Below are positions 1 to 31,863 of a DNA stretch of 64,000 bases, piece after piece (within the stretch, counting starts at the first letter, position 1; each line of letters opens with the position of its first letter). Where the stretch lies: assembly GCA_977862235.1 (NCBI GenBank), contig OZ374558.1:1240001-1304000 (forward strand). Direction: 5' to 3'. Below the pieces are notes generated by a model. It ran no database searches and was not told the origin of the DNA. It was given only the letters and a program-made list of their open reading frames with translations. The position numbers were made by a program, and so were the translations under genes. The stretch is from Dudresnaya verticillata. Its lineage: Eukaryota.

Positions 1-3000
1 CCCGCGACGTCTGTCAGTAGGGGCAGTCACATCTGGATTCGATGGAATCTCTCAAAGCCTGAAACTGGAAAACGCATGAGCGGCTTTAGTTCCTTGCTCA
101 TACACGTCGCAGGCTACAGGGACATCCTGCACGACGCCGTATATATTTTGTTCCGGAAAAGTCCCAGTATGAACGCAGAGAGCATGACGTTGCGCTCAGT
201 GTAGTACTCAAACGCATATGGGTTTTATTTTGGCCTCAGGGATTCCATTTGATACTCTCCAGCATGGGATAGCTCTTCCATGGTGCGCTGGAAAGCGTCT
301 TCGCTGGTGGTGCGAAGTTCGCATGTTTCCAGTCTTTCGGCCAATCTCCTCATACTGATAACGTCAAATTGCCATGTCATGGTCCTTTGCAAATCCCAAA
401 CCACCTGCAAGATACTGTGTTCCCAGAAAATGTGCGACGGCCAAACATCCATTTCGCAAGGAGAGTGCAATAAGACTTCTCCCGCGACGTCTGTCAGTAG
501 GGACAGTCACATCTGGAATCGATGGAATCTCTCAAAGCCTGAAACTGGAAAAACCATGAGCGGCTTTAGTTCCTTGCTCATACACGTCGCAGGCTACAGG
601 GACATCCTGCACGACGCCGTATATATTTTGTTCTGGAGAAGTGCCAGCATGAACGCAGAGAGCATGATGTTGCGCTCAGTGTAGTACTCAAGCGCATATG
701 GGTTTTCTTTTGGCCTCAGGGATTCCATTTGATACTCTCCAGCATGGGATAGCTCTTCCATGGTGCGCTGGAAAGCGTCTTCGCTGGTGGTGCGAAGTTC
801 GCATGTTTCCAGTCTTTCGGCCAATCTCCTCATACTGATAACGTCAAATTGCCATGTCATGGTCCTTTGCAAATCCCAAACCACCTGCAAGATACTGTGT
901 TCCCAGAAAATGTGCGACGGGCAAACATCCATTTTGCAAGGAGAGTGCAATAAGACTTCTCCCGCGACGTCTGTCAGTAGGGAAAGTCACATCTGGATTC
1001 GATGGAATCTCTCCAAGCATGAAACTGGAAAACGCATGAGCGGCGTAAGGTCCTTGCTCATACAGTTCGCAGGCTACAGGGACATCCTGCACGACGCCGT
1101 ATATATTTTGTTCAGGAAAAGTGCCAGCATGAACGCAGAGAGCATGACGTTGCGCTCAGTGTAGTACTCAAACGCATATGGGTTTTATTTTGGCCTCAGG
1201 GATTCCATTTGATACTCTCCAGCATGGGATAGCTCTTCCATGGTGCGCTGGAAAGCGTCTTCGCTGGTGGTGCGAAGTTCGCATGTTTCCAGTCTTTCGG
1301 CCAATCTCCTCATACTGAAAACGTCAAATTGCCATGTCATGGTCCTTTGCAAATCCCAAAACACCTGTAAGATACTGTGTTCCCAGAAAATGTGCGACGG
1401 GCAAACATCCATTTTGCAAGGAGAGTGCAATAAGACTTCTCCCGCGACGTCTGTCAGTAGGGAAAGTCACATCTGGATTCGATGGAATCTCTCCAAGCAT
1501 GAAACTGGAAAACGCATGAGCGGCGTAAGGTCCTTGCTCATACAGGTCGCAGGCTACAGGGACATCCTGCACGAAGCCGTATATATTTTGTTCTGGAAAA
1601 GTCCCAGTATGAACGCAGAGAGCATGACGTTGCGCTCAGTGTAGTACTCAAGCGCATATGGGTTTTATTTTGGCCTCAGGGATTGCATTTGATACTCTCC
1701 AGCATGGGATAGCTCTTCCATGGTGCGCTGGAAAGCGTCTTCGCTGGTGGTGCGAAGTTCGCATGTTTCCAGTCTTTCGGCCAATCTCCTCATACTGATA
1801 ACGTCAAATTGCCATGTCATGGTCCTTTGCAAATCCCAAAACACCTGTAAGATACTGTGTTCCCAGAAAATGTGCGACGGGCAAACATCCATTTTGCAAG
1901 GAGAGTGCAATAAGACTTCTCCCGCGACGTCTGTCAGTAGGGAAAGTCACATCTGGATTCGATGGAATCTCTCCAAGCATGAAACTGGAAAACGCATGAG
2001 CGGCGTAAGGTCCTTGCTCATACAGTTCGCAGGCTACAGGGACATCCTGCACGACGCCGTATATATTTTGTTCAGGAAAAGTGCCAGCATGAACGCAGAG
2101 AGCATGACGTTGCGCTCAGTGTAGTACTCAAACGAATATGGGTCTTCTTTCGGCCTCAGGAATTCCATTTGATACTCTACAGCATGGGATAGCTCTTCCA
2201 TGGTGCGCTGGAAAGCGTCTTCGCTGGTGGTGCGAAGTTCGCATGTTTCCAGTCTTTCGGCCAATCTCATACTGAAAACGTCAAATTGCCATGTCATGGT
2301 CCTTTCCAAATCCCAAACCACCTGCAAGATATTGTGTTCCCAGAAAATGTGCGACGGGCAAACATCCATTTCGCAAGGAGAGTGCAATAAGACTTCTCCC
2401 GCGACGTCTGTCAGTAGGGAAAGTCACATCTGGATTCGATGGAATCTCTCAAAGCCTGAAACTGGAAAACACATGAGCGGCTTTAATTCCTTGCTCATAC
2501 ACGTCGCAGGCTACAGGGACATCCTGCACGACGCCGTATATATTTTGTTCCGGAAAAGTCCCAGTATGAACGCAGAGAGCATGACGTTGCGCTCAGTGTA
2601 GTACTCAAACGCATATGGGTTTTATTTTGGCCTCAGGGATTCCATTTGATACTCTCCAGCATGAGATAGCTCTTCCATGGTGCGCTGGAAAGCGTCCTCG
2701 CTGGTGGTGCGAAGTTCGCATGTTTCCAGTCTTTCGGCCAATCTCCTCATACTGAAAACGTCAAATTGCCATGTCATGGTCCTTTGCAAATCCCAAAACA
2801 CCTGTAAGATACTGTGTTCCCAGAAAATGTGCGACGGGCAAACATCCATTTTGCAAGGAGAGTGCAATAAGACTTCTCCCGCGACGTCTGTCAGTAGGGA
2901 AAGTCACATCTGGATTCGATGGAATCTCTCCAAGCATGAAACTGGAAAACGCATGAGCGGCGTAAGGTCCTTGCTCATACAGTTCGCAGGCTACAGGGAC

Positions 3001-6000
3001 ATCCTGCACGACGCCGTATATATTTTGTTCAGGAAAAGTGCCAGCATGAACGCAGAGAGCATGACGTTGCGCTCAGTGTAGTACTCAAGCGCATATGGGT
3101 TTTATTTTGGCCTCAGGGATTGCATTTGATACTCTCCAGCATGGGATAGCTCTTCCATGGTGCGCTGGAAAGCGTCTTCGCTGGTGGTGCGAAGTTCGCA
3201 TGTTTCCAGTCTTTCGGCCAATCTCCCCATACTGATAACGTCAAATTGCCATGTCATGGTCCTTTGCAAATCCCAAACCACCTGCAAGATACTGTGTTCC
3301 CAGAAAATGTGCGACGGCCAAACATCCTTTTTGCAAGGAGAGTGCAATAAGACTTCTCCCGCGACGTCTGTCAGTAGGGACAGTCACATCTGGAATCGAT
3401 GGAATCTCTCAAAGCCTGAAACTGGAAAAACCATGAGCGGCTTTAGTTCCTTGCTCATACACGTCGCAGGCTACAGGGACATCCTGCACGACGCCGTATA
3501 TATTTTGTTCCGGAAAAGTCCCAGTATGAACGCAGAGAGCATGACGTTGCGCTCAGTGTAGTACTCAAACGCATATGGGTTTTATTTTGGCCTCAGGGAT
3601 TCCATTTGATACTCTCCAGCATGAGATAGCTCTTCCATGGTGCGCTGGAAAGCGTCCTCGCTGGTGGTGCGAAGTTCGCATGTTTCCAGTCTTTCGGCCA
3701 ATCTCCTCATACTGAAAACGTCAAATTGCCATGTCATGGTCCTTTGCAAATCCCAAAACACCTGTAAGATACTGTGTTCCCAGAAAATGTGCGACGGGCA
3801 AACATCCATTTTGCAAGGAGAGTGCAATAAGACTTCTCCCGCGACGTCTGTCAGTAGGGAAAGTCACATCTGGATTCGATGGAATCTCTCCAAGCATGAA
3901 ACTGGAAAACGCATGAGCGGCGTAAGGTCCTTGCTCATACAGTTCGCAGGCTACAGGGACATCCTGCACGACGCCGTATATATTTTGTTCAGGAAAAGTG
4001 CCAGCATGAACGCAGAGAGCATGACGTTGCGCTCAGTGTAGTACTCAAGCGCATATGGGTTTTATTTTGGCCTCAGGGATTGCATTTGATACTCTCCAGC
4101 ATGGGATAGCTCTTCCATGGTGCGCTGGAAAGCGTCTTCGCTGGTGGTGCGAAGTTCGCATGTTTCCAGTCTTTCGGCCAATCTCCCCATACTGATAACG
4201 TCAAATTGCCATGTCATGGTCCTTTGCAAATCCCAAACCACCTGCAAGATACTGTGTTCCCAGAAAATGTGCGACGGCCAAACATCCTTTTTGCAAGGAG
4301 AGTGCAATAAGACTTCTCCCGCGACGTCTGTCAGTAGGGACAGTCACATCTGGAATCGATGGAATCTCTCAAAGCCTGAAACTGGAAAAACCATGAGCGG
4401 CTTTAGTTCCTTGCTCATACACGTCGCAGGCTACAGGGACATCCTGCACGACGCCGTATATATTTTGTTCTGGAGAAGTGCCAGCATGAACGCAGAGAGC
4501 ATGATGTTGCGCTCAGTGTAGTACTCAAGCGCATATGGGTTTTCTTTTGGCCTCAGGGATTCCATTTGATACTCTCCAGCATGGGATAGCTCTTCCATGG
4601 TGCGCTGGAAAGCGTCTTCGCTGGTGGTGCGAAGTTCGCATGTTTCCAGTCTTTCGGCCAATCTCCTCATACTGAAAACGTCAAATTGCCATGTCATGGT
4701 CCTTTGCAAATCCCAAACCACCTGCAAGATACTGTGTTCCCAGAAAATGTGCGACGGGCAAACATCCATTTTGCAAGGAGAGTGCAATAAGACTTCTCCC
4801 GCGATGTCTGTCAGTAGGGAAAGTCACATCTGGATTCGATGGAATCTCTCCAAGCATGAAACTGGAAAACACATGAGCGGCGTAAGGTCCTTGCTCATAC
4901 AGTTCGCAGGCTACAGGGACATCCTGCACGAAGCCGTATATATTTTGTTCAGGAAAAGTGCCAGCATGAACGCAGAGAGCATGACGTTGCGCTCAGTGTA
5001 GTACTCAAACGCATATGGGTTTTATTTTGGCCTCAGGGATTCCATTTGATACTCTCCAGCATGGGATAGCTCTTCCATGGTGCGCTGGAAAGCGTCTTCG
5101 CTGGTGGTGCGAAGTTCGCATGTTTCCAGTCTTTCGGCCAATCTCCTCATACTGAAAACGTCAAATTGCCATGTCATGGTCCTTTGCAAATCCCAAAACA
5201 CCTGTAAGATACTGTGTTCCCAGAAAATGTGCGACGGGCAAACATCCATTTTGCAAGGAGAGTGCAATAAGACTTCTCCCGCGACGTCTGTCAGTAGGGA
5301 AAGTCACATCTGGATTCGATGGAATCTCTCCAAGCATGAAACTGGAAAACGCATGAGCGGCGTAAGGTCCTTGCTCATACAGTTCGCAGGCTACAGGGAC
5401 ATCCTGCACGAAGCCGTATATATTTTGTTCTGGAAAAGTCCCAGTATGAACGCAGAGAGCATGACGTTGCGCTCAGTGTAGTACTCAAGCGCATATGGGT
5501 TTTATTTTGGCCTCAGGGATTGCATTTGATACTCTCCAGCATGGGATAGCTCTTCCATGGTGCGCTGGAAAGCGTCTTCGCTGGTGGTGCGAAGTTCGCA
5601 TGTTTCCAGTCTTTCGGCCAATCTCCTCATACTGATAACGTCAAATTGCCATGTCATGGTCCTTTGCAAATCCCAAAACACCTGTAAGATACTGTGTTCC
5701 CAGAAAATGTGCGACGGGCAAACATCCATTTTGCAAGGAGAGTGCAATAAGACTTCTCCCGCGACGTCTGTCAGTAGGGAAAGTCACATCTGGATTCGAT
5801 GGAATCTCTCCAAGCATGAAACTGGAAAACGCATGAGCGGCGTAAGGTCCTTGCTCATACAGTTCGCAGGCTACAGGGACATCCTGCACGACGCCGTATA
5901 TATTTTGTTCAGGAAAAGTGCCAGCATGAACGCAGAGAGCATGACGTTGCGCTCAGTGTAGTACTCAAACGAATATGGGTCTTCTTTCGGCCTCAGGAAT

Positions 6001-9000
6001 TCCATTTGATACTCTACAGCATGGGATAGCTCTTCCATGGTGCGCTGGAAAGCGTCTTCGCTGGTGGTGCGAAGTTCGCATGTTTCCAGTCTTTCGGCCA
6101 ATCTCATACTGAAAACGTCAAATTGCCATGTCATGGTCCTTTCCAAATCCCAAACCACCTGCAAGATATTGTGTTCCCAGAAAATGTGCGACGGCCAAAC
6201 ATCCATTTCGCAAGGAGAGTGCAATAAGACTTCTCCCGCGACGTCTGTCAGTAGGGACAGTCACATCTGGATTCGATGGAATCTCTCAAAGCCTGAAACT
6301 GGAAAACGCATGAGCGGCTTTAGTTCCTTGCTCATACACGTCGCAGGCTACAGGGACATCCTGCACGACGCCGTATATATTTTGTTCAGGAAAAGTGCCA
6401 GCATGAACGCAGAGAGCATGACGTTGCGCTCAGTGTAGTACTCAAACGCATATGGGTTTTATTTTGGCCTCAGGGATTCCATTTGATACTCTCCAGCATG
6501 GGATAGCTCTTCCATGGTGCGCTGGAAAGCGTCTTCGCTGGTGGTGCGAAGTTCGCATGTTTCCAGTCTTTCGGCCAATCTCCTCATACTGAAAACGTCA
6601 AATTGCCATGTCATGGTCCTTTGCAAATCCCAAAACACCTGTAAGATACTGTGTTCCCAGAAAATGTGCGACGGGCAAACATCCATTTTGCAAGGAGAGT
6701 GCAATAAGACTTCTCCCGCGACGTCTGTCAGTAGGGAAAGTCACATCTGGATTCGATGGAATCTCTCCAAGCATGAAACTGGAAAACGCATGAGCGGCGT
6801 AAGGTCCTTGCTCATACAGGTCGCAGGCTACAGGGACATCCTGCACGAAGCCGTATATATTTTGTTCTGGAAAAGTCCCAGTATGAACGCAGAGAGCATG
6901 ACGTTGCGCTCAGTGTAGTACTCAAGCGCATATGGGTTTTATTTTGGCCTCAGGGATTGCATTTGATACTCTCCAGCATGGGATAGCTCTTCCATGGTGC
7001 GCTGGAAAGCGTCTTCGCTGGTGGTGCGAAGTTCGCATGTTTCCAGTCTTTCGGCCAATCTCCTCATACTGATAACGTCAAATTGCCATGTCATGGTCCT
7101 TTGCAAATCCCAAAACACCTGTAAGATACTGTGTTCCCAGAAAATGTGCGACGGGCAAACATCCATTTTGCAAGGAGAGTGCAATAAGACTTCTCCCGCG
7201 ACGTCTGTCAGTAGGGAAAGTCACATCTGGATTCGATGGAATCTCTCCAAGCATGAAACTGGAAAACGCATGAGCGGCGTAAGGTCCTTGCTCATACAGT
7301 TCGCAGGCTACAGGGACATCCTGCACGACGCCGTATATATTTTGTTCAGGAAAAGTGCCAGCATGAACGCAGAGAGCATGACGTTGCGCTCAGTGTAGTA
7401 CTCAAACGAATATGGGTCTTCTTTCGGCCTCAGGAATTCCATTTGATACTCTACAGCATGGGATAGCTCTTCCATGGTGCGCTGGAAAGCGTCTTCGCTG
7501 GTGGTGCGAAGTTCGCATGTTTCCAGTCTTTCGGCCAATCTCATACTGAAAACGTCAAATTGCCATGTCATGGTCCTTTCCAAATCCCAAACCACCTGCA
7601 AGATATTGTGTTCCCAGAAAATGTGCGACGGGCAAACATCCATTTCGCAAGGAGAGTGCAATAAGACTTCTCCCGCGACGTCTGTCAGTAGGGACAGTCA
7701 CATCTGGAATCGATGGAATCTCTCAAAGCCTGAAACTGGAAAACACATGAGCGGCTTTAGTTCCTTGCTCATACACGTCGCAGGCTACAGGGACATCCTG
7801 CACGACGCCGTATATATTTTGTTCCGGAAAAGTCCCAGTATGAACGCAGAGAGCATGACGTTGCGCTCAGTGTAGTACTCAAACGCATATGGGTTTTATT
7901 TTGGCCTCAGGGATTCCATTTGATACTCTCCAGCATGAGATAGCTCTTCCATGGTGCGCTGGAAAGCGTCCTCGCTGGTGGTGCGAAGTTCGCATGTTTC
8001 CAGTCTTTCGGCCAATCTCCTCATACTGAAAACGTCAAATTGCCATGTCATGGTCCTTTGCAAATCCCAAAACACCTGTAAGATACTGTGTTCCCAGAAA
8101 ATGTGCGACGGGCAAACATCCATTTTGCAAGGAGAGTGCAATAAGACTTCTCCCGCGACGTCTGTCAGTAGGGGCAGTCACATCTGGATTCGATGGAATC
8201 TCTCAAAGCCTGAAACTGGAAAACGCATGAGCGGCTTTAGTTCCTTGCTCATACACGTCGCAGGCTACAGGGACATCCTGCACGACGCCGTATATATTTT
8301 GTTCCGGAAAAGTCCCAGTATGAACGCAGAGAGCATGACGTTGCGCTCAGTGTAGTACTCAAACGCATATGGGTTTTATTTTGGCCTCAGGGATTCCATT
8401 TGATACTCTCCAGCATGGGATAGCTCTTCCATGGTGCGCTGGAAAGCGTCTTCGCTGGTGGTGCGAAGTTCGCATGTTTCCAGTCTTTCGGCCAATCTCC
8501 CCATACTGATAACGTCAAATTGCCATGTCATGGTCCTTTGCAAATCCCAAACCACCTGCAAGATACTGTGTTCCCAGAAAATGTGCGACGGCCAAACATC
8601 CTTTTTGCAAGGAGAGTGCAATAAGACTTCTCCCGCGACGTCTGTCAGTAGGGACAGTCACATCTGGAATCGATGGAATCTCTCAAAGCCTGAAACTGGA
8701 AAAACCATGAGCGGCTTTAGTTCCTTGCTCATACACGTCGCAGGCTACAGGGACATCCTGCACGACGCCGTATATATTTTGTTCTGGAGAAGTGCCAGCA
8801 TGAACGCAGAGAGCATGATGTTGCGCTCAGTGTAGTACTCAAGCGCATATGGGTTTTCTTTTGGCCTCAGGGATTCCATTTGATACTCTCCAGCATGGGA
8901 TAGCTCTTCCATGGTGCGCTGGAAAGCGTCTTCGCTGGTGGTGCGAAGTTCGCATGTTTCCAGTCTTTCGGCCAATCTCCTCATACTGATAACGTCAAAT

Positions 9001-9285
9001 TGCCATGTCATGGTCCTTTGCAAATCCCAAACCACCTGCAAGATACTGTGTTCCCAGAAAATGTGCGACGGCCAAACATCCTTTTTGCAAGGAGAGTGCA
9101 ATAAGACTTCTCCCGCGACGTCTGTCAGTAGGGACAGTCACATCTGGAATCGATGGAATCACTCCTAGCATGAAACTGGAAAAACCATGAGCGGCGTAAG
9201 GTCCTTGCTCATACAGGTCGCAGGCTACAGGGACATCCTGCACGACGCCGTATATATTTTGTTCTGCAGAAGTGCCAGCATGAAC
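1..9285. repeat. Tandem array of ~19.4 x 480-bp units (three units are 477 bp), open at the window start; the unit is a decayed segment of a Sel1-repeat gene
   Basis: Exact 480-bp periodicity with a 3-bp deletion (ccaatctcat vs ccaatctcctcat) in units near 2265, 6105 and 7540. The minus-strand translation QDVPVACELYEQG...FMLGEI..PDV..PTDRRRGRSLI...AHFLGTQYL aligns to the Sel1 ORFs at 21006-21875 and 31864-32658. The array ends abruptly at ...gccagcatgaac (9285). Confidence 0.98.
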
Positions 9286-9697
9286 TGTGGTGCAAACGTC
9301 TGAAGACGTTACACCGCCGAGCAGTTCGGGGCTCGGTGGGTAGCTGCGCCCGTGGCGGTGAGGAGCCTCGCCTTGGGTGGTCTGTGGTAGAGCAGAGGAC
9401 ACGCCTTGGGCGGACTGTAGACGGCCGAGGCGGAAAGGAAGGAAAAAGGAGACAGAAAGGAAACACGTCAAGGACGGTGATAGACGTGGAAGCACGGGAG
9501 GTAGACGCTTGAGCCGTAGGCAGCAGTAGGATACGCGCGTGCGGAACGGGGAAGTCTGGACCAAGGCCGGCTTGCCCGGGCGTTTACTGCTACGTCTGGG
9601 ACGGCTTACCTAAGTATAGTACGGCGGTGCGGCGGCGGTGGTGCGTGTGCGTAGCGCGGGAACTCGGGACACGTGTTGTCCCGAGGCGCGTCTGACA
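9286..9697 (-). mobile_element. Possible LTR-like segment that truncates the array
   Basis: Unrelated sequence starts with TGTGG exactly at the array break and there is a TGACA at 9693-9697. A TATA-like motif and a CT-rich tract lie on the minus strand. No partner LTR, PBS, PPT or TSD found. Confidence 0.3.
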
Positions 9698-9827
9698 GAT
9701 CACCCATCGCATGCAGCCGCGCGCCTGACAGGTTGCCGTGCAACCCCCTGTGTGGGCGCTTACACACACACGTGGACGCGTGTGCCTTACAACCGTGCGC
9801 GCGCGTGTACTGTACAGCGTGCGCCTT

Positions 9828-9985
9828 GGATCTAATCCGATACTTGTCCGATCCCGATCCCATCCGGATCCGGGCCAGCAATGCAAACACTCGCAACCTT
9901 ACAGACGCGTATCTTACAGCTCAGGCGATCCGGATAGCCAATCTGGATACCGGATCCGGATCCCATCGGGATCCGTATTACAGTG
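9828..9985. repeat. GATCC-rich imperfect inverted repeat (MITE-like or subterminal repeats)
   Basis: Dense GATCC/GGATC motifs. Left ccgatcccgatcccatccggatccgg resembles the reverse complement of right ccggatccggatcccatcgggatccg. Confidence 0.45.
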
Positions 9986-10584
9986 CCCCGGGGCGCCATG
10001 TCGGCCCATCACCGTACAGTGCCCGCGTGGCGCGCGGCGCGCAGCGTGCGCGCGCGCCCCAGTGAGCCGTCGATGACGTGTTCGCGCGCCAACGGCGGTG
10101 GTGAGCGCCGGTGGCGGTTTCTCCGTCGGTCGACGTATTTGTTGCTCCGCTTTCAGCGAAAAAGGGGCTCACCCCCCTTGCACCACACGACCCCCCTCCA
10201 AAACGCGAACACGTCCGACCCTCAACCTGCCGCCGCGCGTTTGCCTCCGGCTGTGCCCGTGCCTGCGCTTTGTCTTGGTGTGTCTGCGCGCGCGTGATGC
10301 GACTTCGGCTGTGCCGTGCGAAACCTCGCTCGTGTTGCGCGCCGCGTGCCCTTGCACTACGCCGACATCATCGCCTGTGGCGCTTTGCGATCCCCGTCGT
10401 TGACGTCGTTCAGGCCCCCTCGCCTGTTGGCGTCCTGCTTTGTGTATCGCCTAGGGCGTAGTAACTGAATCGTCGTTGACGTGAGTTTGTAAGGTTTTCG
10501 CCAGTGGCGTTGGACAGTAATCGTCTTTGACGCACGCTTCGAGAACTTTCGCCATTGGCGCCGGATACGAGTCGTCTTTGACGT

Positions 10585-12947
10585 TTGTGGATTCATCCCC
10601 AGCGGCGCGAACTTATTCTCGTCTTCGACGTGATGCCGACCTTCAATGGCATGCAGGTGGCGGCCCCCTCGGCCGCGCCGGTGTACGCGTCACCTGTCGA
10701 CTTCGTCGGTAAGAATCCTCGCGATCACGCGCATTTCTTCGCGCGGGCCCCCTGGTTTGACCAGGAGGCTTTGCGTGAGGATAATTTGGTTTCCCATTAC
10801 GCTACTAGTGGTTTCTTGCCAGGGGGCCTGCCCCTTGGCGTCGTCTGGACGTTAGAGTGGAAGTTGCGCTGCGCGGTTCCGGTGGGGTGGCTTTGGGTGC
10901 GAGCGGGACAATCGCGCGCGGACGTCCACGCGCAGTTCGTCTCAGACGTACATCGACGCTTTACGCGTTATCCCGGGTCGACGTTAACGCCACCCCTTTT
11001 CAATTTCGATGCAGGGCAATATCGTACAGCCGGCGAGGCCGAATACGGTGCTCGTCTCGGGACGTTGTCGTTGAAACACGTGAGCGTGTCCATTTAGCCT
11101 CACATTTTGCAAGAGGCTTACCTCTTAGGTGTACGCTTAAAAGCGGATTTTCGTTACTTGCATCGTACGGACACGTTCTTCTGAGAGCGTTGTATACGCT
11201 GGGAATGTGAAACGCGTCGCCGAAAGGGCGTGTTTGTGCCCTACCAGGACATGCAGGTTGACCGCATTGAGCGTAGTAAGCTACCTTACTGTTTTGTGAA
11301 GGTGCCGCCTGTATGGCGTGAGTTCGAGATATGCGAAGGTTTCGCAGCAGAGCTCCCCCCATGTGTCACGTATCTTGGTTCAGAGCTGATGACCGACCCG
11401 TATTCCAGGTATTGGATCGTTTTCTACACCGAGTGGGTCGCCCACGTGGCGTATGCTTGGCTATAGGAGGTGTATGACACCTTCCGTATGTATAATCTAC
11501 CACCGCGTGTGGTAGCCTATCTCGGTAGCCTCGACTTGGTCGAAATATTTGGTGGTGCCAGGAACTCCGAGGAGTTCTGGGACCTGCGCGCTATTGCGGA
11601 TGAGATCGATTGGAACGACCCGGTCGCCGTGCCGTTAGCTAACAACCGCCGTAAGGCGAAGCGTTCGCGTTACGCGATGAGTCGAACTCATTCCGCCTGT
11701 GGCGATTGGATTTGGTTCAACCCTTGGACAAAGCGTCGTATGACGAAGAACATTGCCGAACGCCATCGTAAGACCGATCGCTTCACGCCGGGTAATCACC
11801 CGCGCGGTTTGCGTAAGACCTGCGACTTTGTCGGTGACTTTCCTCCTCACTTGAGTGCCTTAATGGCGGAGGAGGATGCTCTGCACGCCAACGGCGGACT
11901 GGATAACTCGTCTGGGACGGCTATTGTTACGCCTATGACGATGGAGTCTTCCGCTGAAGCCGTTGTCCCGTCTGCGACGTTACCCACGGGCCCTTCTGCG
12001 GCGAGTGCGATGCCAACCGGCGTGGCCACTGTCGCACCCTTGGACCTTGCGGCGCCCGTTGCGGACGACGAGGGTGACGTCATTATGGCAGTGCCAGTGT
12101 CTGAGCCACCCCCGTCCACAATGGCCGCAGGTGGAGCATCGAGCGTCATAGACGGTTCAGGGAAAGCTCCCAGCGTGCCGGTAGGGACCGAAGAACAGCG
12201 CCGTACGGTCCTCGCGTTGTTGCAGGCTGCCGGAGTCGCTACTAGCGGTTTGAGCGGCTCACCCACGGAGTGGGTGAGCCAATCTTTGTCGGCTGCGGTT
12301 CCGCCTCATGGTGGGTCCGCGCCGAAATCTACTATTGTCGTAGGCTCCGCGTCGAATGACGGTGTGGCAGAAAAGCTGTCGTCGCCTAAGGCGAATGGTC
12401 CAGCGTCCAAAGACGTGAGTATTACTGTATGACTGTACCGCCTGCGGCGAGCGAAACAAATGCTGCTATAGCGTCGTCGACGGCTCAGAAGGGGCCAGGT
12501 GCTCCTGCGTCGGTGACGAGAGCAGAGTTAACAACGCCGAAGGCGAGTGAAGAGGCGACGCCAATCGAGGCGGTTTCTGAACTTACGCCAAAGGCGGTCG
12601 ACGCGTCGTTGACTGCGCTTAAAGGGGATGGCGCTGGACTTGCACCTAAGGCGAATGATAGCTTGCGCTCTGCGCCTATGGAGGGTGTTGTTGCTTCATC
12701 GCCTGTGGCGGATATTGTTCCGACGACGTCAAAGGCGGTTGATAAGTCGCCCCTTTCGCCTGCGGTGCCTGTTGCGGCCACTCCGGTGTCAGTTAAAATG
12801 GCAAGGTCTTTGCGGTCCTCCCCGGCTCCTGACGTGAGTGTACTGTCGACGACGGAGGACGACCTCTACGAAGAGGCGTTGCGTGCGTCCGCCGAAGGCG
12901 TTACTGAAGATGAGTCTGCCGAGTCGTCTGCGACAAAAGAGTCTTGA
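10585..12947 (+). pseudogene. Disrupted hypothetical protein: Trp/Tyr-rich globular region followed by a long Ala/Ser/Pro-rich acidic tail; probably a TE accessory ORF
   Basis: Consecutive protein-like ORF pieces 10585-11097, 11230-11466, 11470-12432 (same frame across one stop) and 12429-12947. No recognised domain. Confidence 0.5.
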
Positions 12948-15900
12948 TGTCGTTTCAGGAACGGATAGCGGACGATAGGGTGCCTATCGTGTTGCGCTTC
13001 GGCTCCCTGGCGGGACCGATGAGCGGGGTATTCCCCTTCGTCTTTGACGATTAATGTAGCTGTAGTGGTTGGTTGCTAGGGCGAGGGGTTGTCCTTATTT
13101 GTTTTTAGCCCAGTAAACTTCGGCCATTGTCAGCGTCTGTTCGTTTCGCGTTTCGCGTTGGCCTTAGGCCGTAGCCTGTGAGCCCCTTTCGACTTTGCGT
13201 CGTGTTCTTGATTGCCCGCTGCAGTAGCGTTGGCTTTTGATGCCATTAGCCTTAGCCGTGCGTTGCGCTTCGGATGCGTTTGGCTAGTAGTGTAATACAG
13301 TGCAAGGCTTGCAGAAGCGGCGTGGAACTATTTCAGGATCGCGAATAGCGCCTGAGATCGAGATTGGAAGTGAACCTTCCAGGTAACTGACAAGTGGTCC
13401 ATTTCGGGACACATCCAGTGTTATGTTATGATTATTTATTAGTAGTGTAGGCGGGCCTTGTACAGAGTCCTCAGAAGCGGTGTCAGGGGCCCAGACGGTA
13501 GCCTTTTTCCATATAAGGTGCACCATTGTGGCAACTACTGCACAGTAAAGGTAAGCACCCTTCCGGCCCAAACCCGTTTCCAAGCCATCGGCACCGAAGC
13601 GCACTCGTCACCCGCGCCCGGTTAACCGCCCGCCCAGTGAACGGTTACGATGCCGTGCTTCCGTTAAGGGTACAATTGTTCTGTCAGGTTTTGGGTTCTT
13701 CCGCTCTACCACTGCTACCGAGGATCCGCTCTGCGTTACTGTTGGGGAGTTGTACTCTCTGAGTTAGCAAGAGACCTAAAAGGAACTACCTTACAAGTAG
13801 TGTCCGCTGTAGTAGCGTTTTTGTTCGTCTTGGACGTGCGGCGGTTGGCGTATTTCCGCTGACTTAGCGTTTTTGTAATGCGTGTGTCGCGCTGCGCTTT
13901 GGGCGTTTTTTGTCGGCGTCCTGGACGAGGGTCGCGAAGGCGGTAAGGTAGGTGTTGACGCCTTGGCGTTGCCGCCCCTTTCTTCTTCGACATTACTCCT
14001 TGGGGGTAGGGTAGGGAATGGTTGCGCTCGCGCGACTGAGGCCGCGGCGGCCGTCGGCAGCGGCGGAGTCGTTGGCGATTTGTTGGCGCGTGGTGCACGG
14101 AACCCACGGCAACTGCGTCTTCAAACACCTCCCCCCTTCGGGGGTGGGTTTGTCGGTGCGCCCCTTCTTCGGCGAGTTACGTCGGAGACGTGCAGCGGGT
14201 GCTTTCGCGCGAGACCGTGGCCGGCAGGGTGGCGGTCTCAGGGACTTGGCCGTGGTGCGAGTGCACGGCTCGACGTCGGAGACGGTTGTTGCGCGATGCC
14301 ACTTGCGCCTGTCGTCGCTGGTGCTCGTAGCACCTGCTCAGCCACTTGGCATGATTGCGTTCGGCGTGCGTTGACGGCTGGGTGGTGCGCGCTGCCGTGT
14401 TTGGAAATTAAAAATTGACCAAGTACTTCCTCCGATTACCCGAGGGGCGCGGGCGGCGGATCTCGATTTGCGATCTGGATCCACTGTCGGGGGCGGGAGT
14501 GGCTGTGAGTACGGGTTCGACGCCGCTACAACGGTTCCACGTGGCCGACTAAGCGATCACTGCGTGCTGCGGATGGGCCGAGGTAGCGCCGCCCCTCCGC
14601 CGCGTACGGAACAGATCAGTGGATGTATGGAGGGCCATCTGCGTGCAGCACACGGTCTTGCGGTGCCGTAACCGCGATTCGGTGCTGTTGCACTGAGCCT
14701 GACGGCGGTGGCTGTGCGGCGTTTCGGCGACTGCAGCACAGCGGACACGACACGGTTGAGAAATAAATGCAAAAGTGGGGCATTTTCCCACAGCAGCACA
14801 GCGCGCGCAAGTTGTCCCTTGCCGCCGCCGCCTCTTCTGACTGCAGCACTCCTCTGCAAATGGGAAACGTTCTCATTTCAAGTCTGGCAGCTGCTATTGT
14901 TGCTGGATGATGCACGCGATTGAAGCATCTTTTTACATTTGAAGTTTGGGAAGAACACGGCCAGAGACTGTAGGGTGGCGCACCGGCGGATCCGCGTCGA
15001 GAGCACGGTTTTGACGTGCGGTAAGGCATGCAGAGAAGAAGCATTGAGACTGTTCATGTAGAATAAGAATAGGTTGAGCGAGGACTTTATTCTCTCTAAG
15101 AGAAAATAAACCATGCCCAAAGGATCCCTCAGTTTAAACGTGGCATTTGCCCTTGAACTGCTACTCGTTCATCTCTAGTCGAGTACTGAAGCCGGCTCCC
15201 CATATTGATGCATCAATATTTCCGTCAAGAACTGGTAGCCGTATCAGCAGCGGTGGTGTATTTATTTCACTGCCCCGTCTTTCTGAAGGTGGAGGGTACT
15301 TCTAAAGCTTCCTTCTCACGTGCGCCACTCGAAAGACTATGATTCACAGCAATATCACCTAGAAGCGAGCCCAGGAAAAAGAAAGCTTCGAGGCCCGAGA
15401 AGGGTGTAGTAGATTTGGGGCAGAAAAGGCCTGATATTCACCAACAGTGGACGCTTGTCATCGCCCTCATATAAAAATGCTTTAAGCGATGCCAGGAAGG
15501 GGCGCTCCTGATATAATACTCTGAGGGGCATTTGCGGAGCAGAACAGTGGTCCAGACTCCAATAGAAGAAAAGGCAAGAAAGCTGGCAGCCATAAGGACT
15601 CGGAAGGGGATAATGTACCGTTGTGTACGGAAAACTCCGGCTCTTTGTGGAAGCACTTGGAAGTGCAATGGCACGTCTGGCCTTTCCCCGTGTAGTAGCA
15701 GCCTATGCAGGGCCCGGGCTCCGAGACAAGCAGAAAAGCCAGTCCCAGAGCGACCCCAGCCGACAAGACCTTGGCGCCTACGTCGTTGGTCAGGCAGAAG
15801 TGCACGTCGCCTCACGGCTCTGATCGAAGCCGAAGGTTTCCTAAGCCCACGTTATCGTGGAATGATAGTGCGACCCCGAAACTCTTCATAATTTGCTTAG

Positions 15901-16555
15901 ATTCATCCTGCGCTGGGGACTCCCGCCCATTTGCAAGACGCGTCATAAGAAGTGCGTGAGAACCAACAAGAACACTTCCTTCGGTACTACTAGAAACAAA
16001 CAATAAAGTCTAACATCTCAAGTTCACGCAACCTCCTGTGGTTCACTCAACATTTTATACTATTGATGCACACGTACAGCTTCCACTGAATAAAGACCTT
16101 CACCTGGGCCCTATCTAATGCAAAAATGGCCTGTCACCTTCGCTGCCCCGTACGGCTCCTGCTCCCGTGTGGATAGCATTGGGCTCGGTTGCGATCGCCT
16201 CCTCGGCTACACGCAAAAAACATTAATCGTTTCAAAACAAAAAGTCGTGCTTGTCCAGCGCCGGGCGTAACAAACTATATCTCCGTCGAGGAAGAGTTCC
16301 GTCCAACATCCCAAGAAGTTGGCTGTATGTTTGTTCTAGTTACGTAAGCCCCCACGTGGCAGACCCAAATCAATCTCGCGCCAGGTAATAATACCCCTCA
16401 ATTTGGAAGGACCTGCGACGTCCTCATTTGTTGCCCTGAATGTCTTTCCCTGCTTCGGGCCCTGATATGGGTAAAGACGCCCTTGTGTTGCAATACCTTT
16501 CTCCCTTTCAGCAAAAGCAGACGGTTTCTTGCTGCTCATCTAACAAACAATCTGG

Positions 16556-16562
16556 TATAAAT
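16556..16562 (+). promoter_or_regulatory. Candidate TATA box of the secreted peptide gene
   Basis: TATAAAT about 120 bp upstream of the ATG at 16679, followed by a C/A-rich leader. Same motif at 27414-27420. Confidence 0.5.
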
Positions 16563-16678
16563 GCGCTCCCTACGCTGCCCTCTTCCTCAACGAGCAGCTC
16601 GCAACCCGAAAGAGCAACCCGACACACCCCAATTCAAAAACCTTCCCCAAATCAACTTGAAACAACTCACCGAAAAAT

Positions 16679-16912
16679 ATGGCTCTCTTCAAGATATTTG
16701 CGGTGTTGTCCATGATCCTCCTTGTCTCCGGGTCTGTGGGTGCTGCAGCGGTCACCAAGGTCGACAAGAACCCGGAGCTCACAGTAGAGTCCATGACGAG
16801 GATGATGAAGGAGTTATTCCCATGCCAGACGGATTCTGACTGCAACAAGCAGATGAGCGGTTATTCGTTCTGTGACAGAACACATGCCTTCTGCATTCCG
16901 TTGTACAGGTAA
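16679..16912 (+). CDS. Small secreted cysteine-rich peptide precursor (77 aa), copy 1
   Basis: ATG start, hydrophobic signal peptide (MALFKIFAVLSMILLVSGSVGA), short pro-like segment, C-terminal C-x5-C-x9-C-x6-C (CQTDSDC...FC...FC), upstream TATA motif. Confidence 0.75.
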   Translation: MALFKIFAVLSMILLVSGSVGAAAVTKVDKNPELTVESMTRMMKELFPCQTDSDCNKQMSGYSFCDRTHAFCIPLYR

Positions 16913-17164
16913 ATATTGGTCGAAAGAGCTGCATAATCGGTTTCGGAAGGAGATAGAAGGCAGATTTGAGAATGTATCTATCGCTACGATGTTTGCGGGA
17001 ATGGAGACAGAAAGAGATAGACTTTACATGAGTTGACGCATTTGATGAACTCAACAGAATGCGAAGTTGTTCCATTCCCTTTTTGAAGCTCACAGAGTAA
17101 AAAGTGTCGCAGATATGCAGAGTTTGTCTTTTAGCCGCTCCATTACATTTCCGTTCCATTACAG

Positions 17165-18316
17165 TGTTGTAGACAGGGTGTTTATGGAATAGAAACAGGC
17201 TTGCGGGGATGAAACAACCGTTATCTCGTTGGTCGAATCAACGGTGTGTCAGGAGCGGGCTCGACAATACTGCCGGGGAATATTAAAGCATTACGTTGGA
17301 TACTTAGCTCCACTTTCCGGTCGGTAGGTCTTCAAAGACCCGTAACGCCGTTCTTTGACCCTGAGAACGCGGTTCTACAACGGCTCTCAGAATCGCGGCA
17401 ATCTCTCCCGCGGCCCTCTGCAACATTCCTCCCAAGTTGAAATCACGGTCACTTATTGGCTGACGGTTTTTGAGTCAATGGCTGGGCGTGGTCCATTCTG
17501 GACAGTTCTGAACAGTTCCGGACGGTGATTGGCTGTTCTCCTGCGCCGCCAGCGCCCAACTGTACCATTGGTTGGATATGGCTGGCTGTGGTTGGCTTGC
17601 CAGACCGGTACATGGCCAGTGGTTGGCTGAAACAATCCTTGGGGCCATCCACAAGCCATTCTTGATGCCCCACTCGCAATGCCTTCCACTGTGTCTACCG
17701 ACCTTGCCCCGAGAACAGTTCAGTCAGTCTTTTGCTCCAGGGAGATTGACGTACTTGCGTAACGCAATGGTGCGGAAGTTGCCGGGTGGACTGCTTGCTC
17801 TTACCCCTACGTGAGCGACTGCTGTCAACTGCTTCTGTGAGGGGAATTCTGTTGTCGCCCAGAACGCCAGGGACCCAAGCTGTTCTGTAGGGAATAGTCA
17901 GGCCCGCAGAGGGAATTCCAGCGCTCGTAAGTATCAACTGTGTCCGGTGTCCGGATATCTGCCAAGCGGGGCAGGATCAGCCTCTCCTTTCAGGTGAGCA
18001 CAGATTGTACTTGTTTGCCCGATATATGTGGGGTAGGCACAGTGTGAGAGCGTGACAGCGGAAGATATGCCAATACCGAGACTGGCGGCGGTTTTTTGTG
18101 TTGCCCGGACTGGCAATTGAAGCTCCTTCCAGGTTGTAGCTGATAAAGCGCCATCAAGTATGCTTAGAAGAGAGAGAGCGCGAGAGAGAAAGAAAGAGAG
18201 CTGAGAAAGCTAGGACATTAGAGACCGAGACCGACGCTCAGTGAAATATTGAATTGAACCCCTCTCTTTCTGCTTTCTGCTCTCTCCAGCTCTGTCCAGG
18301 ACCACTATGAACAACA
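17165..18316 (+). mobile_element. Possible solo LTR (~1.15 kb); duplicate at 28023-29174
   Basis: TGTTGT...ACAACA inverted termini, GA-rich then CT-rich tracts near the 3' end, no convincing ORF. The flanks do not form a TSD. Confidence 0.35.
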
Positions 18317-18619
18317 GGGAACACTTAAATCATAATCTTGGGAATGGTACGATACGATCTAGAGATAGTGCTAAATAGGGGAAGGCGCTTGTCGCCTGGT
18401 GTGTTCTAGTGTAAAAGACTCCTCGAGGGAAACTGCTCGCTTCTACACCGTGGAGCTCATGTCAGGTTTTTTGGACTACTCTGATAGAGAGAGAAGACAA
18501 ATTTATAGATGCAGAAGCTAAAAGGTACGCTACTTCGCCCAAGAGACTAAAGAGACAATGGAGAAGGCAAGCAGACGGCGGTTCATAGCTAAAGATTGAA
18601 GCAAATGAGAGATAAACCG

Positions 18620-20997
18620 GACCAGCACTCACGAGGTAGTGTCAGGGATCCCCGACACCAACTCCAAACAGTCCCCTTATCCGCAGCTCCGTCGGGCCGG
18701 CCGCTCCACCAACGCCGCTTGCCGCTTTCCCTCCTCTACTCACGCCCACATCCGCGCAAAGCGTGTTTTGACCTGGGACGCGAAACCCAGCTTGCTCAAC
18801 TTTCCTCTGCACGCCACTCTTTCGACCCGCGCAAGCACGTCTTGGCCAGCTTGAACTGCCTCCCTACCGATCATTGCGCCGCAGCTGGCCCCCTCTTCCA
18901 CTCCTGTATAACTTTGCGTTGTATGAGCGCACTTGGGGGCGGTTCTGGAAGACATTGATGGATGCCCGCGCAGCGTGCGGTGAAAACATTCCCCAATGGC
19001 GGCTGCGAGTGTGGCTGTATGCTCACCACTTCGCCGTAACGCCCAGTAGCACACACGACCGCACGCACAGACGCTGTCACTTCTGTCACTCGAAGACCCC
19101 GACCCATCCGCTGTCGCCCGCGTCTGCGACGCGCTGCGAGCCATCCGTCGTACATGCCTCGAAGAATACCCCTCACCGCATGCCACCCAATAGACAGGCC
19201 CACTCACTACCACATCTGCACTCTGTAGGGTATCACTCCCCGCCCATCAATCGACCGTGTGCAGGCAAATGGGCCAAAGTCGCCTACACAGGACCACGTT
19301 AAACAACAAAAAATACAACAACACATGTTTGCTTCTCAGTTGCGACTTGTGAAAGCTTCTGCTCTCTCTAAGACAGATTGTTCCGCTCAACCTACAGTAG
19401 CAGCCATTTCCCGACCCCGGGAGTCGTCCTTGCACTCCACATTCTGCAACATTGTCTCCACAGACGCCACCGCATCTCCATGCTTTGAGTATATGTTACT
19501 GGCGTACCATACTCCGCAGAAAACCACATGTTCCGTATAGGCCCAGTCTCGCTTCGCATGAACCGTGTGGTAACTCGTGGCGCGCAGCGTTGCGAAGGGA
19601 AAGTGTACAACTGGGAAAGGAAACGGACGCGGGTGGACAAGAGCGAATCGGCTGGCGATGCACCTTGGGCGATCCTCTCGATCCTCTCCACTTCACGTGG
19701 GGTCTGCCCCGAAGGGCTCTGGCCTTTATGACACTACTCTCTATTGAGCAAATCTGCTCCTACCAGCTTCCAGACAGGGAACAGCTTGCTGTCGGTGCGC
19801 CAGCGAGCTTGACAGTCATCTTGAGAAATACTTTTCCCTGACAACAGACAGTTCCAGGCCGCGAACCAACACACGTGTGCCATCGCGTAAGCGCCCACGC
19901 CTTGCGGAGCCGCAAGGCTGCGATCGCTTCCAATGCGTGAAGCGCTGCTCGCGAGCACAGTGCTCCGCGTCACAACCGGCATTAGAACTACTGGTTCCTG
20001 TCAACCATCTTCCGACTCTTCCCTGTCATTTGGGGACGTTCCCAATTCCGCCCCGCCGACTCCACGCGTCCCTCTAGCCTAGGTTCTGCCTTGCATCCCA
20101 CCCCATCATTCCTACCATCCATAGAATCTCTTACGTCGTTGAGTAAATCTGGCGGATTGGCCTCCGCGATGCTCATGACGCCTCCGCCTCCGCCGTCTCC
20201 ACACAGAAGCACGGGATTATTATGTGCTGACTCATAGGCCATTGTTTCCGATTCTGGTGCACTTTTGATCATCTCGTAAAGTTTAATCTCACTCCCAGCT
20301 CAATAGAGTTTACGAGCACCTCCGTGCTCTTCATTTACGGGTACGACTACCTGTCCCCGCTGTGAGGCTGGTAATCGGAGTCGTGTTTCTCTCTTGGATC
20401 CCTACGGCCATCAGGCCACCGTATGCACTGCTCAAGAGGGTGTTGTTTCGCTGCCACAACATGCTTCAAGATAAGCTTGTCGAGTTTATTTTGTCGCTCT
20501 CATGGGCTCGACGCTCGTGTTGCAGCGCCGTTTCCCAACCCGACGCATCCTGATCGTGGCTCTACCATCTCGATTTGTTCATTGATGATCCGACTTTTGC
20601 TTCATTTCCACAAGCGTTCGACGTTTCCATCATAAGTTCTCATTCCCATTCAAGCTTGTCTGGCTATGTTTCTGGGCAGACCTTTGCCGCTCGCGAGCGT
20701 TCCAAGCGCCGACACTATCGTGATATTTGTCGTATTCATGGCATTACCCTTCATCCGTTGGTAATGGATATCTACGGTCGAGTTGGAATCAGCAATTATT
20801 CCGGACAGTAAAAACTTGCAAACTTTATCGCGGACAAGAAAGGCTCGAATCCGCTTGTTGAGAAGAATCCTCTCCTTACTCGCCTATTTTCGTTTGTGCT
20901 CCAATATGTAGCCCTTACTGTGAATCGTCGGCTACTTCTCAGCGCCTCCAGTCCTTTCTCGTATTCTCTTCCCCTAATGCTCCCCCCTTGGTCCTAA
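18620..20997 (+). mobile_element. Decayed, internally deleted CRE-like (RLE-type) non-LTR retrotransposon, copy 1
   Basis: QLAVG RT-region motif (~19780), LDPYGHQATVC zinc-knuckle remnant (~20400), and QAFDVSIIS...RERSKRRHYRDIC...LHPLVMDIYGRVG endonuclease region homologous to 22102-22485. The 5' boundary is approximate. Confidence 0.8.
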
Positions 20998-21005
20998 GCT
21001 CTCGG

Positions 21006-21743
21006 CTACGACTCAGAAAGCTCCTCGAGCCTTTTCCTGGCTTTACGAGACCCCAAACCTGCAGCTCTCTGGTACAGTTCAATCGCCTTTGGCAAGTCCC
21101 TCTTCACTTCTGCATGATCACTCTCCAAGATCCGGGCCAGTTCGTACATCGACCCTATATCTCCTGACGCAATGCCTTGCTCCAGCAACGTCATGCTACG
21201 TGGAACATCTCTGTTGACACCTTCCCTTCCAAAGAACAGAATTAGGCTGAGCTCAACAATGGACGGGAGGAATCCACCATCGATAGCATACTGATAATAC
21301 CCAATTCCCATTTCAGTATCCTTTTCATATCCCCAACTCCCTTCAAGATATCGCGTTCCCAGAAAATGTGCGGCGGACATGCTGCCATTTTCCAAGGAGT
21401 GTGTAATAAGAATTCTCCCGCGGTGTCTATCAGTAGGGACAGCCACATCTGGGCTCAATAGAATCTCCCCTAGCATGAAACTCGAAATGACATCACCGGC
21501 GATGTGTCCTTGCTCATACAGCTCGCAAGCTCTTGGAAGGTCCTGCGCGACGCCGTCTAGTCCGTGCTGTAGAAAAAATGCCAGCCTGCATCTCGAGCGG
21601 GTGCAGTCGCGTGCGGTGCAGTACTCAAGCAGATCCATTGCTTTTTTCTTGTCCTTTGCGACGCCATTTGTTCCATACCAGTAAGACAGAGCTCTTTCAT
21701 GCTGCTCTGCAAGGCTTCGTCGCTGGTGTTGCCAAGATCTCAT
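21006..21743 (-). CDS. Sel1-like repeat (SLR) protein, copy 1 (first ATG at 21743; frame stays open to 21875)
   Basis: About six SLR units: YWYGTNGVAKDKKKA, GLDGVAQDLPRACELYEQG, AAHFLGTRYLEGSWGYEKD, GVNRDVPRS, SMYELARILESDHAEVKRDLPKAIELYQRAAGLG. Confidence 0.85.
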   Translation of the reverse strand: MRSWQHQRRSLAEQHERALSYWYGTNGVAKDKKKAMDLLEYCTARDCTRSRCRLAFFLQHGLDGVAQDLPRACELYEQGHIAGDVISSFMLGEILLSPDVAVPTDRHRGRILITHSLENGSMSAAHFLGTRYLEGSWGYEKDTEMGIGYYQYAIDGGFLPSIVELSLILFFGREGVNRDVPRSMTLLEQGIASGDIGSMYELARILESDHAEVKRDLPKAIELYQRAAGLGSRKARKRLEELSES

Positions 21744-22101
21744 GTTTCCCGTTTTGCGGCCTATCTCCTGGAAGCAAAGATGTCGAGCTGAGGAGCTCGC
21801 GCGTGTTCCTGGTTGGGGAAGGACGGCTCTTTGTGGTGTCAATACCACCGCGAAGATGTGTTGGTAATACAGCACATTTCCGTGGATCTAGCGCTACTTC
21901 GGGAAAGACGTGTGCTAGTTGGACGAAAAAAGGCGCGACTGGAAGTGGATCACGGCGCCAATCCGGATTGGAGACAGCGAGCGACGTGCACGAAGTTTTG
22001 GAAACTTTTCGACACCGGTTCGAAAATGTTTCGGGGTAAACGTCTGATGTCACTTTACGAAAGCATGAAGCTAGAGCATCCCTACTGGATATTCTTAAGC
22101 A

Positions 22102-27536: not shown

Positions 27537-27770
27537 ATGGCTCTCTTCAAGATATTTGCGGTGTTGTCCATGATCCTCCTTGTCTCCGGGTCTGTGGGTG
27601 CTGCAGCGGTCACCAAGGTCGACAAGAACCCGGAGCTCACAGTAGAGTCCATGACGAGGATGATGAAGGAGTTATTCCCATGCCAGACGGATTCTGACTG
27701 CAACAAGCAGATGAGCGGTTATTCGTTCTGTGACAGAACACATGCCTTCTGCATTCCGTTGTACAGGTAA
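27537..27770 (+). CDS. Small secreted cysteine-rich peptide precursor (77 aa), copy 2, identical protein
   Basis: Same translation as 16679-16912; TATAAAT at 27414. Confidence 0.75.
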   Translation: MALFKIFAVLSMILLVSGSVGAAAVTKVDKNPELTVESMTRMMKELFPCQTDSDCNKQMSGYSFCDRTHAFCIPLYR

Positions 27771-31855: not shown

Positions 31856-31863
31856 GTTCTAGA

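What the first reader, a model, noticed from the sequence alone, without database searches (positions are those of the whole stretch)
1..9285. A satellite born from a protein-coding gene: 480-bp array of the N-terminal Sel1 repeats
Seen: each unit corresponds to about 483 bp of the neighbouring Sel1 genes (EIGRK... to ...YYQY; 21288-21769 and 32146-32627), joined head-to-tail at ccaatctcct|catactga. The units share a -2 and a -1 deletion and in-frame stops, so the founder was already non-coding when it amplified. Units are highly similar to each other and clearly more distant from the genes. Inference: recent amplification of an exon-derived satellite 12 kb from its intact paralogs. It could be a source of small RNA or heterochromatin acting on the Sel1 family, or a nascent centromere-like array.
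Basis: partly seen in the sequence, partly recalled or inferred. Interest (0 to 1): 0.75.

Follow-up and report, generated by a model that had tools for sequence, protein, structure and literature searches.

The report
Satellite grown from dead gene fragment
A 480-base piece of a Sel1-repeat protein gene, already broken and heavily mutated, sits here in at least 19 head-to-tail copies near two related genes; it is likely neutral repeat DNA spread by unequal recombination rather than a regulator or a centromere.

Summary
Observation confirmed. Window 1-9285 holds 19.4 copies of a 480-bp unit. Each full unit matches ~483 bp of two Sel1-repeat ORFs (g1 72-74%, g2 76-78%). All 18 full units carry a -2 deletion, a -1 deletion and one shared stop. 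Changes on the unit lineage fall evenly on codon positions (33/29/29) and 20 of 76 are synonymous (22% expected by chance), so the founder decayed for a long time before it was copied; g1 versus g2 shows purifying selection (dN/dS 0.37). The units form 13 haplotypes whose recombination signal rises with distance, plus nested exact duplications: repeated unequal exchange, not simple assembly stutter. The functional ideas are weak. Only 6 of 1274 distinct array 21-mers match g2 exactly and none match g1. In Drosophila, 70-76% identity did not give silencing (PMC7874207). Nothing here points to a centromere. g1 and g2 are open frames but have disrupted 5' flanks, so 'intact' is unproven. Gene-derived tandem arrays are known (Su(Ste), AT-chX). 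No reads, genome or named relatives were available. Verdict: a clean but likely neutral new example.

The parts
1..9285 (-). Tandem array, 19.4 x 480 bp; Sel1 sense is the minus strand; continues beyond the left window edge
351..8981 (-). 18 full units (15 x 480 bp, 3 x 477 bp with a 3-bp loss at the junction), 13 distinct haplotypes
831..1310 (-). Example unit, closest to g2 (78.0%); -2 deletion near 1177, -1 deletion near 1114, shared TGA near 846 (positions estimated from the alignment)
8982..9285 (-). Truncated right-edge unit; breaks off inside the Sel1-derived sequence against unrelated DNA
280..684 (+). Antisense ATG ORF of 134 aa that spans the junction; present in 18 of 18 repeats (133 aa in 3); variation looks neutral
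9286..14485 (.). GC-rich (58.8%) flank that cuts the array; no Pfam family in six frames, no second copy in the window; unidentified
21006..21743 (-). g1, Sel1-repeat ORF, 245 aa from the first ATG (frame open from 21887); unit-homologous part 21288-21769
31864..32601 (-). g2, Sel1-repeat ORF, 245 aa from the first ATG; unit-homologous part 32146-32627
14486..21865 (+). Copy 1 of a 7.4-kb duplicated block carrying g1
24967..32723 (+). Copy 2 of the block, carrying g2, with an insertion at 25593-25973
22102..24154 (-). Broken LINE-like retroelement (RVT_1, E 6.7e-10) directly upstream of g1

Best explanation
The array is a young satellite whose 480-base unit is a broken, neutrally decayed fragment of a Sel1-repeat gene, likely multiplied in place by repeated unequal recombination and likely without a function of its own. 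Steps: (1) shown: the unit is homologous to ~160 codons of g1/g2. (2) Shown: the founder lost coding capacity before amplification and then drifted by about a fifth of its bases. (3) Inferred: one DNA-level event (break repair, template switch, or a small circle re-inserted) joined the fragment head to tail. (4) Shown as a pattern, inferred as a mechanism: rounds of unequal crossover or conversion produced mosaic units and nested 2-, 3-, 8- and 11-unit duplications. (5) Inferred: an insertion or rearrangement cut the right end at 9285. (6) Inferred: no selected role.
For: Homology. Lesions shared by 18 of 18 units. The gene frame from the ATG stops after 38 codons in 4 of 4 units checked. Pfam finds no Sel1 in the 4 unit-derived ORFs scanned at E up to 0.01 (one chance-level DUF5540 hit, below its cut-off). 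Neutral decay: 33/29/29 changes by codon position where g1 equals g2; 20 synonymous of 76 changes against 22% expected, p 0.41; dN/dS unit versus g2 0.80, whereas g1 versus g2 is 0.37 (Fisher p 0.003). Recombination: 142 of 528 informative site pairs fail the four-gamete test, 6 of 88 at under 40 bp against 19 of 87 to 28 of 73 in the bins from 40 to 239 bp, with at least 8 recombination events. Exact repeats of 1354, 1024, 811 and 811 bp at offsets 5274, 960, 3837 and 1437. No Rfam match; unit RNA fold z -1.43. Unequal crossing-over is the classical route (passages of PMC13553610 and PMC5615363).
Against: Neutrality is argued from sequence only; no RNA, chromatin or read data were available. 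Variation inside the array is poorer in synonymous changes in the gene frame than chance predicts (3 synonymous, 33 missense, 2 stops against about 22%), which I cannot explain; it does not favour Sel1 coding. A 134-aa antisense ORF is open in 18 of 18 repeats and is uncommon in controls (7.7% of decay simulations, 1.3% of shuffles). The array may be far longer than the window shows. A closer Sel1 paralog may exist elsewhere in the genome.
Confidence: 0.75

Rival explanations
1. The array is a Su(Ste)-like source of small RNAs that silence Sel1-family genes in trans.
For: It is gene-derived, frameshifted and tandem, like Su(Ste) (passages of PMC7874207). 124 of 1274 distinct array 21-mers are within 2 mismatches of g2, and 67 of g1. 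The longest exact match to g2 is 24 nt.
Against: Only 6 of 1274 21-mers match g2 exactly and 0 match g1. No inverted repeat in 1-1500. In Drosophila, CK2beta-tes at ~70% and vasa at 76% identity escape silencing; that is animal piRNA, so only an analogy. The unit drifted neutrally away from the genes, the opposite of what a silencer should do.
Confidence: 0.08
2. The array is the edge of a large centromeric or pericentromeric satellite block.
For: It is open at the left edge, shows irregular multi-unit duplications, and lies next to a region dense in broken mobile elements. 480 bp is near three nucleosome lengths (recalled, not tested).
Against: Only 9.3 kb is visible. Centromeric monomers are conventionally 100-200 bp (passage of PMC13049873). 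GC is 48.6%, close to the gene's. No second array in the other 54.7 kb. No positive evidence.
Confidence: 0.05
3. The unit was captured by a mobile element, and the array is that element's internal or terminal tandem repeat.
For: Satellites often arise inside transposons (passages). The region holds another displaced gene piece: 33048-33149 matches the 2OG-Fe gene at 86.8%. A PIF1-like helicase remnant lies at 61.7-62.8 kb (below Pfam cut-off).
Against: The unit is wholly Sel1-derived. The right flank has no Pfam family in six frames, no terminal repeats of note and no second copy in the window. The left side cannot be seen.
Confidence: 0.07
4. The array, or its length and order, is an assembly artefact.
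For: No reads or genome were available to check. 6 of 153 unit pairs are identical. Long arrays can be collapsed or chimeric in assemblies (general knowledge).
Against: 13 haplotypes among 18 units. 33 of 36 biallelic sites are shared by 2 or more units. Incompatibility grows with distance. The only indel that varies among units is the same 3-bp loss in 3 units. Read errors would not give this pattern.
Confidence: 0.03
5. The amplified thing is a new antisense micro-gene: the 134-aa plus-strand ORF made by the junction.
For: Open in 18 of 18 repeats. The one length variant keeps the frame. An ORF this long appears in 7.7% of decay simulations and 1.3% of shuffles.
Against: 7 of 29 variants are synonymous against 22% expected (p 0.82). 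The chance of no stop under neutrality is 0.31. No Pfam hit. All copies descend from one founder, so this is one observation, not 18.
Confidence: 0.02

Closest known systems
Drosophila AT-chX piRNA cluster (passage of PMC7874207)
   Same: A tandem-repeat locus with ~76% identity to a protein-coding gene (vasa), the same distance as here; reported not to repress that gene in D. melanogaster.
   Different: A proven piRNA source in pericentromeric X chromatin. Here transcription is unknown and the related genes lie 12 and 23 kb away.
Drosophila Su(Ste)/crystal repeats (passages of PMC7874207)
   Same: Tandem, frameshifted, untranslated copies derived from a protein-coding gene (CK2beta-tes lineage).
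   Different: The Su(Ste) unit has a promoter and a hoppel insertion that drives antisense transcription, and its piRNAs are highly complementary to the Stellate target. This unit is a bare coding fragment with no close target in the window.
ATF7IP2-derived repeat on the Eremias velox W chromosome (PMC8160951, abstract and Discussion)
   Same: An amplified fragment of a protein-coding gene forms repetitive DNA of unknown function.
   Different: 10-11 kb unit with introns and SINEs, spread along a sex chromosome, exons without stops. Here the unit is 480 bp, dead and local.
Satellites seeded by transposons or rDNA spacers (passages of PMC5615363, PMC13553610)
   Same: An existing sequence is amplified head to tail and homogenised by unequal exchange.
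   Different: The seed here is host coding sequence, with no transposon or rDNA in the unit.
Multicopy gene-derived fragments in alpaca repeat domains (one passage of PMC13751797)
   Same: Fragmented gene copies accumulate in repeat-rich regions.
   Different: Megabase regions with several genes, not one regular monomer.

Membership tests
Satellite DNA | Head-to-tail monomers over 100 bp | tested here: met
   480 bp x 19.4
Satellite DNA | Non-coding | tested here: met
   Lesions shared by 18 of 18 units and neutral change; transcription not testable
Satellite DNA | Homogenisation by recombination among units | tested here: met
   Mean 3.4% among units against 22-28% to the genes; four-gamete signal
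Satellite DNA | High copy number or long array in heterochromatin | not testable with these tools
   Left end is outside the window; no genome held
Sel1-repeat family (g1, g2) | Pfam Sel1 above the gathering score | tested here: met
   79.8 and 69.1 bits against 30.7; 14 PDB sequences matched at E up to 0.01, mostly Sel1/SEL1L proteins
Sel1-repeat family (g1, g2) | Complete, expressed gene | tested here: inconclusive
   Open 245-aa frames with dN/dS 0.37 in the 5' part, but 0 of 6 changed codons synonymous in the 3' part, and shared flank ends ~165 bp upstream of the ATG
Su(Ste)-type trans-silencer | High identity to a target gene | tested here: not met
   72-78% to the only Sel1 copies found in the window; 6 and 0 exact 21-mers of 1274; the rest of the genome was not available
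Su(Ste)-type trans-silencer | Antisense or double-stranded transcription giving small RNAs | not testable with these tools
   No RNA data; no inverted repeat in 1-1500
Centromeric satellite | CENH3 occupancy and presence on many chromosomes | not testable with these tools
   No chromatin data or genome
Transposon-derived satellite | Unit homologous to, or embedded in, a transposon | tested here: inconclusive
   Unit wholly Sel1-derived; right flank unidentified; left flank unseen
Retro-copied circular RNA | Junction joins a splice donor exactly to an upstream acceptor | tested here: not met
   The unit starts 2 nt before a candidate acceptor, keeps that AG, and its 3' end is not followed by GT in g1 or g2

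The most novel reading that the evidence does not exclude
A host gene family has spun off its own silencing array: a dead Sel1 fragment was amplified into a satellite that makes small RNAs or nucleates heterochromatin over a fast-turning Sel1 (putative pathogen-receptor) family. That would be a Su(Ste)-like system outside animals, caught next to its parent family, or the seed of a new centromeric repeat.
Probability: 0.1. Interest if true: 0.7.

Novelty: new member of a known kind. Interest (0 to 1): 0.3.

Why it matters
The seed of most satellites is unknown or is a transposon or rDNA piece. Here the source family sits next door and the order of events can be read from the sequence: gene death, about 20% neutral drift, one head-to-tail joint, then rounds of unequal exchange. 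That makes it a tidy case for studying satellite birth. It would matter much more if small RNAs or CENH3 were found on it, but the sequence evidence leans against a role on the neighbouring genes.

Tried and rejected
No whole genome is held. No sequencing run was listed for 8000-11000, and so no RNA holder; this is no evidence either way, and read laying could not be used. No exact match to the 30-nt junction in metagenome contigs. No related locus for g2 there (83 pattern hits, 0 confirmed). No close protein relative: 1 hit at 28%, 10 longer hits at 22-31%, and the best 150 of 13,784 representatives are at 23-34%. My impression of a red seaweed is recalled, not tested. Back-spliced circular RNA origin: rejected on junction anatomy. 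A decayed kinase domain upstream of g1/g2, a recalled resemblance: no support from Pfam, PDB or blastp against 167 fetched proteins, 9 of which have kinase motifs. Gene conversion between the array and g2 as the cause of the g1/g2 divergence step: rejected; the change-point is 21377 (range 21353-21473), not the unit end at 21288, and no long identical tract exists (24 nt at most). Compensated frameshift (-2 and -1 sum to -3): rejected, a stop follows the first deletion (4 of 4 units checked). A fixed higher-order repeat: not found; lags 8 and 11 are lowest but irregular. Sel1 periodicity in the unit: lost. Literature: 10 searches listed no paper on a Sel1-derived satellite; the library lacks most subscription journals. 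PMC8447722 and PMC10048060 (passages) gave nothing relevant. No supplements were read.

Full report
Observation. The first 9285 bases are a head-to-tail array of period 480 (19.4 copies, 96% matches), open at the window's left edge and cut mid-unit on the right. Every full unit aligns end to end with two segments further right: 32146-32627 at 75.7-78.0% and 21287-21769 at 72.0-74.1%. These lie in two minus-strand ORFs, g1 (21006-21743) and g2 (31864-32601), which score above the Pfam Sel1 cut-off; g2 also matches solved Sel1-repeat proteins. tblastn finds no third Sel1 copy outside the array. The window is eukaryotic-looking and rich in broken mobile elements (LINE reverse transcriptases, a PIF1-like helicase remnant). 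I could not establish the lineage.

The founder was long dead. All 18 units share a -2 deletion, a -1 deletion and a TGA; 8 of 18 have a further TAG. Although the deletions sum to -3, the gene frame stops 38 codons after the ATG in the 4 units checked. At sites where g1 and g2 agree and the units differ, changes fall 33/29/29 on codon positions 1/2/3, and 20 of 76 are synonymous against 22% expected (p 0.41). By contrast g1 versus g2 over the same stretch has dN/dS 0.37 (17 synonymous on 105 sites, 24 missense on 375; p 0.003). Counted only from the ATG, that contrast is weaker (13 of 36 synonymous, p 0.07). The substitution spectrum is broad, with no C-to-T excess. So the roughly 20% distance is mostly neutral decay on the unit's own lineage, before amplification.

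The array grew in several rounds. Units differ by 16.4 of 480 positions on average and up to 30, and form 13 haplotypes. Of 528 pairs of informative sites, 142 fail the four-gamete test: 6 of 88 pairs under 40 bp apart, against 22-38% in the bins from 40 to 239 bp, with at least 8 recombination events. Exact repeats of 1354, 1024 and 811 bp at offsets of about 11, 2, 8 and 3 units show nested multi-unit duplications without a fixed higher-order period. This is the pattern expected from unequal crossover or conversion (inference; the classical model, passages of PMC13553610 and PMC5615363) and is hard to get from read errors. Copy number and order still need reads. Internal diversity (3.4%) exceeds the 0.56% divergence of the distal part of the neighbouring duplication (29 of 5135 sites). 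At equal rates, the array began before that block was last copied or homogenised, while its newest expansions are very recent.

How the first joint formed is not readable. The unit begins 2 nt before a candidate splice acceptor (pyrimidine tract plus CAG in g1, AAG in g2). It keeps that AG, and its other end is not at a donor in either gene, so a back-spliced circular RNA does not fit. No microhomology is visible in g1 or g2, but the founder's own flanks are lost. A DNA-level event is the default inference.

The neighbours are not clearly intact, and not the direct parents. g1 and g2 sit at the ends of a 7.4-kb duplicated block (14486-21865 and 24967-32723). Their divergence rises from 0.56% distally to 2.5% in the 3' part of the ORF, 8.5% in the unit-homologous part and 12.5% just upstream, with a change-point near 21377, not at the unit end. 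This suggests a recombination breakpoint inside the Sel1 gene, unrelated to the array. At sites where the genes differ, the units side with g2 26 times, g1 9 times and neither 7 times (p 0.006 for 26 against 9). Homology between g1 and g2 ends about 165 bp upstream of the ATG. g1 is then preceded by a broken LINE; g2 by a short simple repeat and a displaced piece of the 2OG-Fe gene. Between the unit start and the ATG, 3 of 4 changed codons are synonymous, a weak hint that coding starts further upstream; in the 3' part 0 of 6 are synonymous. They may be last exons, truncated genes or young pseudogenes.

Function. For silencing of g1/g2: of 1274 distinct array 21-mers, 6 match g2 exactly and none match g1; 124 and 67 are within two mismatches. 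There is no inverted repeat in the first 1500 bases, no Rfam match in the window, and the unit's fold is unremarkable (z -1.43). The best benchmark I found is Drosophila, where CK2beta-tes (~70% to Su(Ste)) and vasa (76% to AT-chX piRNAs) escape repression (passages of PMC7874207); that is an analogy across kingdoms. A closer target elsewhere in the genome cannot be excluded. For a centromere there is no positive evidence and no test. An antisense 134-aa ORF spans the junction in all 18 repeats; it is somewhat unusual (7.7% of decay simulations, 1.3% of shuffles), but its variation is neutral (7 of 29 synonymous). One oddity stands against a tidy story: within-array variants are poor in synonymous changes in the Sel1 frame (3 of 38), which I cannot explain beyond chance.

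Comparison and novelty. Tandem or amplified repeats made from protein-coding genes are known: Su(Ste) and AT-chX, ATF7IP2 fragments on a lizard W chromosome (abstract and Discussion of PMC8160951), and gene-derived fragments in alpaca repeat domains (one passage). The review passages I saw name transposons and rDNA spacers as the usual seeds. Sel1-repeat proteins are listed among potential pathogen receptors in one red seaweed (table passage of PMC12115072), relevant only if the lineage guess is right. Ten paper searches listed no Sel1-derived satellite.

Verdict. A real feature with a correctly read origin, likely neutral. New member of a known kind; interest 0.3. The chance of a regulatory or centromeric role is put at about 0.1.

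Noticed in passing
window 15116-21865 vs 25974-32723: The duplicated block shows a divergence gradient from 0% (16750-18250) to 12.5% at the Sel1 5' end, with a change-point near 21377; likely a recombination breakpoint inside the Sel1 gene that made g1 or g2 a chimera.
   Followed up: yes
window 33048-33149 vs 37232-37337: A 102-bp inverted piece of the 2OG-Fe dioxygenase gene (86.8%) lies about 450 bp upstream of g2, a second displaced gene fragment in this region.
   Followed up: partly
window 36656-37471 (+): Open 2OG-Fe_Oxy_2 ORF (E 7.4e-23) with only four close relatives found (59-65%), all unnamed; the rest are at 37-39%.
   Followed up: partly
window 20554-20997 (+), 31412-31855 (+), 22102-22518 (-): Homologous LINE-like 3' end peptides flank g1 on both sides and g2 on its 3' side, pointing at the gene; resemblance to CRE-type endonuclease domains is recalled, and Pfam gave no hit.
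   Followed up: no
window 9286-14485: GC-rich 5.2-kb element with plus-strand ORFs (10582-11097, 11467-12432, 12390-12947) that share a frame across a few stops, and a 24-bp inverted repeat at 9850-9973; no Pfam family; possibly an unknown mobile element.
   Followed up: partly
window 25593-25973 and 33607-33916: A ~380-bp insertion in copy 2 of the duplication matches a second place at 83%; likely a small dispersed repeat.
   Followed up: no
window 45817-45977: Palindromic stretches (72 bp at 94%, 64 bp at 87.5%) beside a TG microsatellite; possibly the end of a DNA transposon, next to a 734-aa ORF (42691-44895) with no Pfam family.
   Followed up: no
window 21586-21604: Five G/T differences between g1 and g2 within 19 bp (coding strand), with the units siding with g2 each time; a mutation cluster or short conversion tract.
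   Followed up: no
window 61715-62755 (-), 63120-63998 (+), 58324-59658 (+): PIF1-like helicase remnants (below cut-off) and two long unassigned ORFs, probably further mobile-element debris.
   Followed up: no
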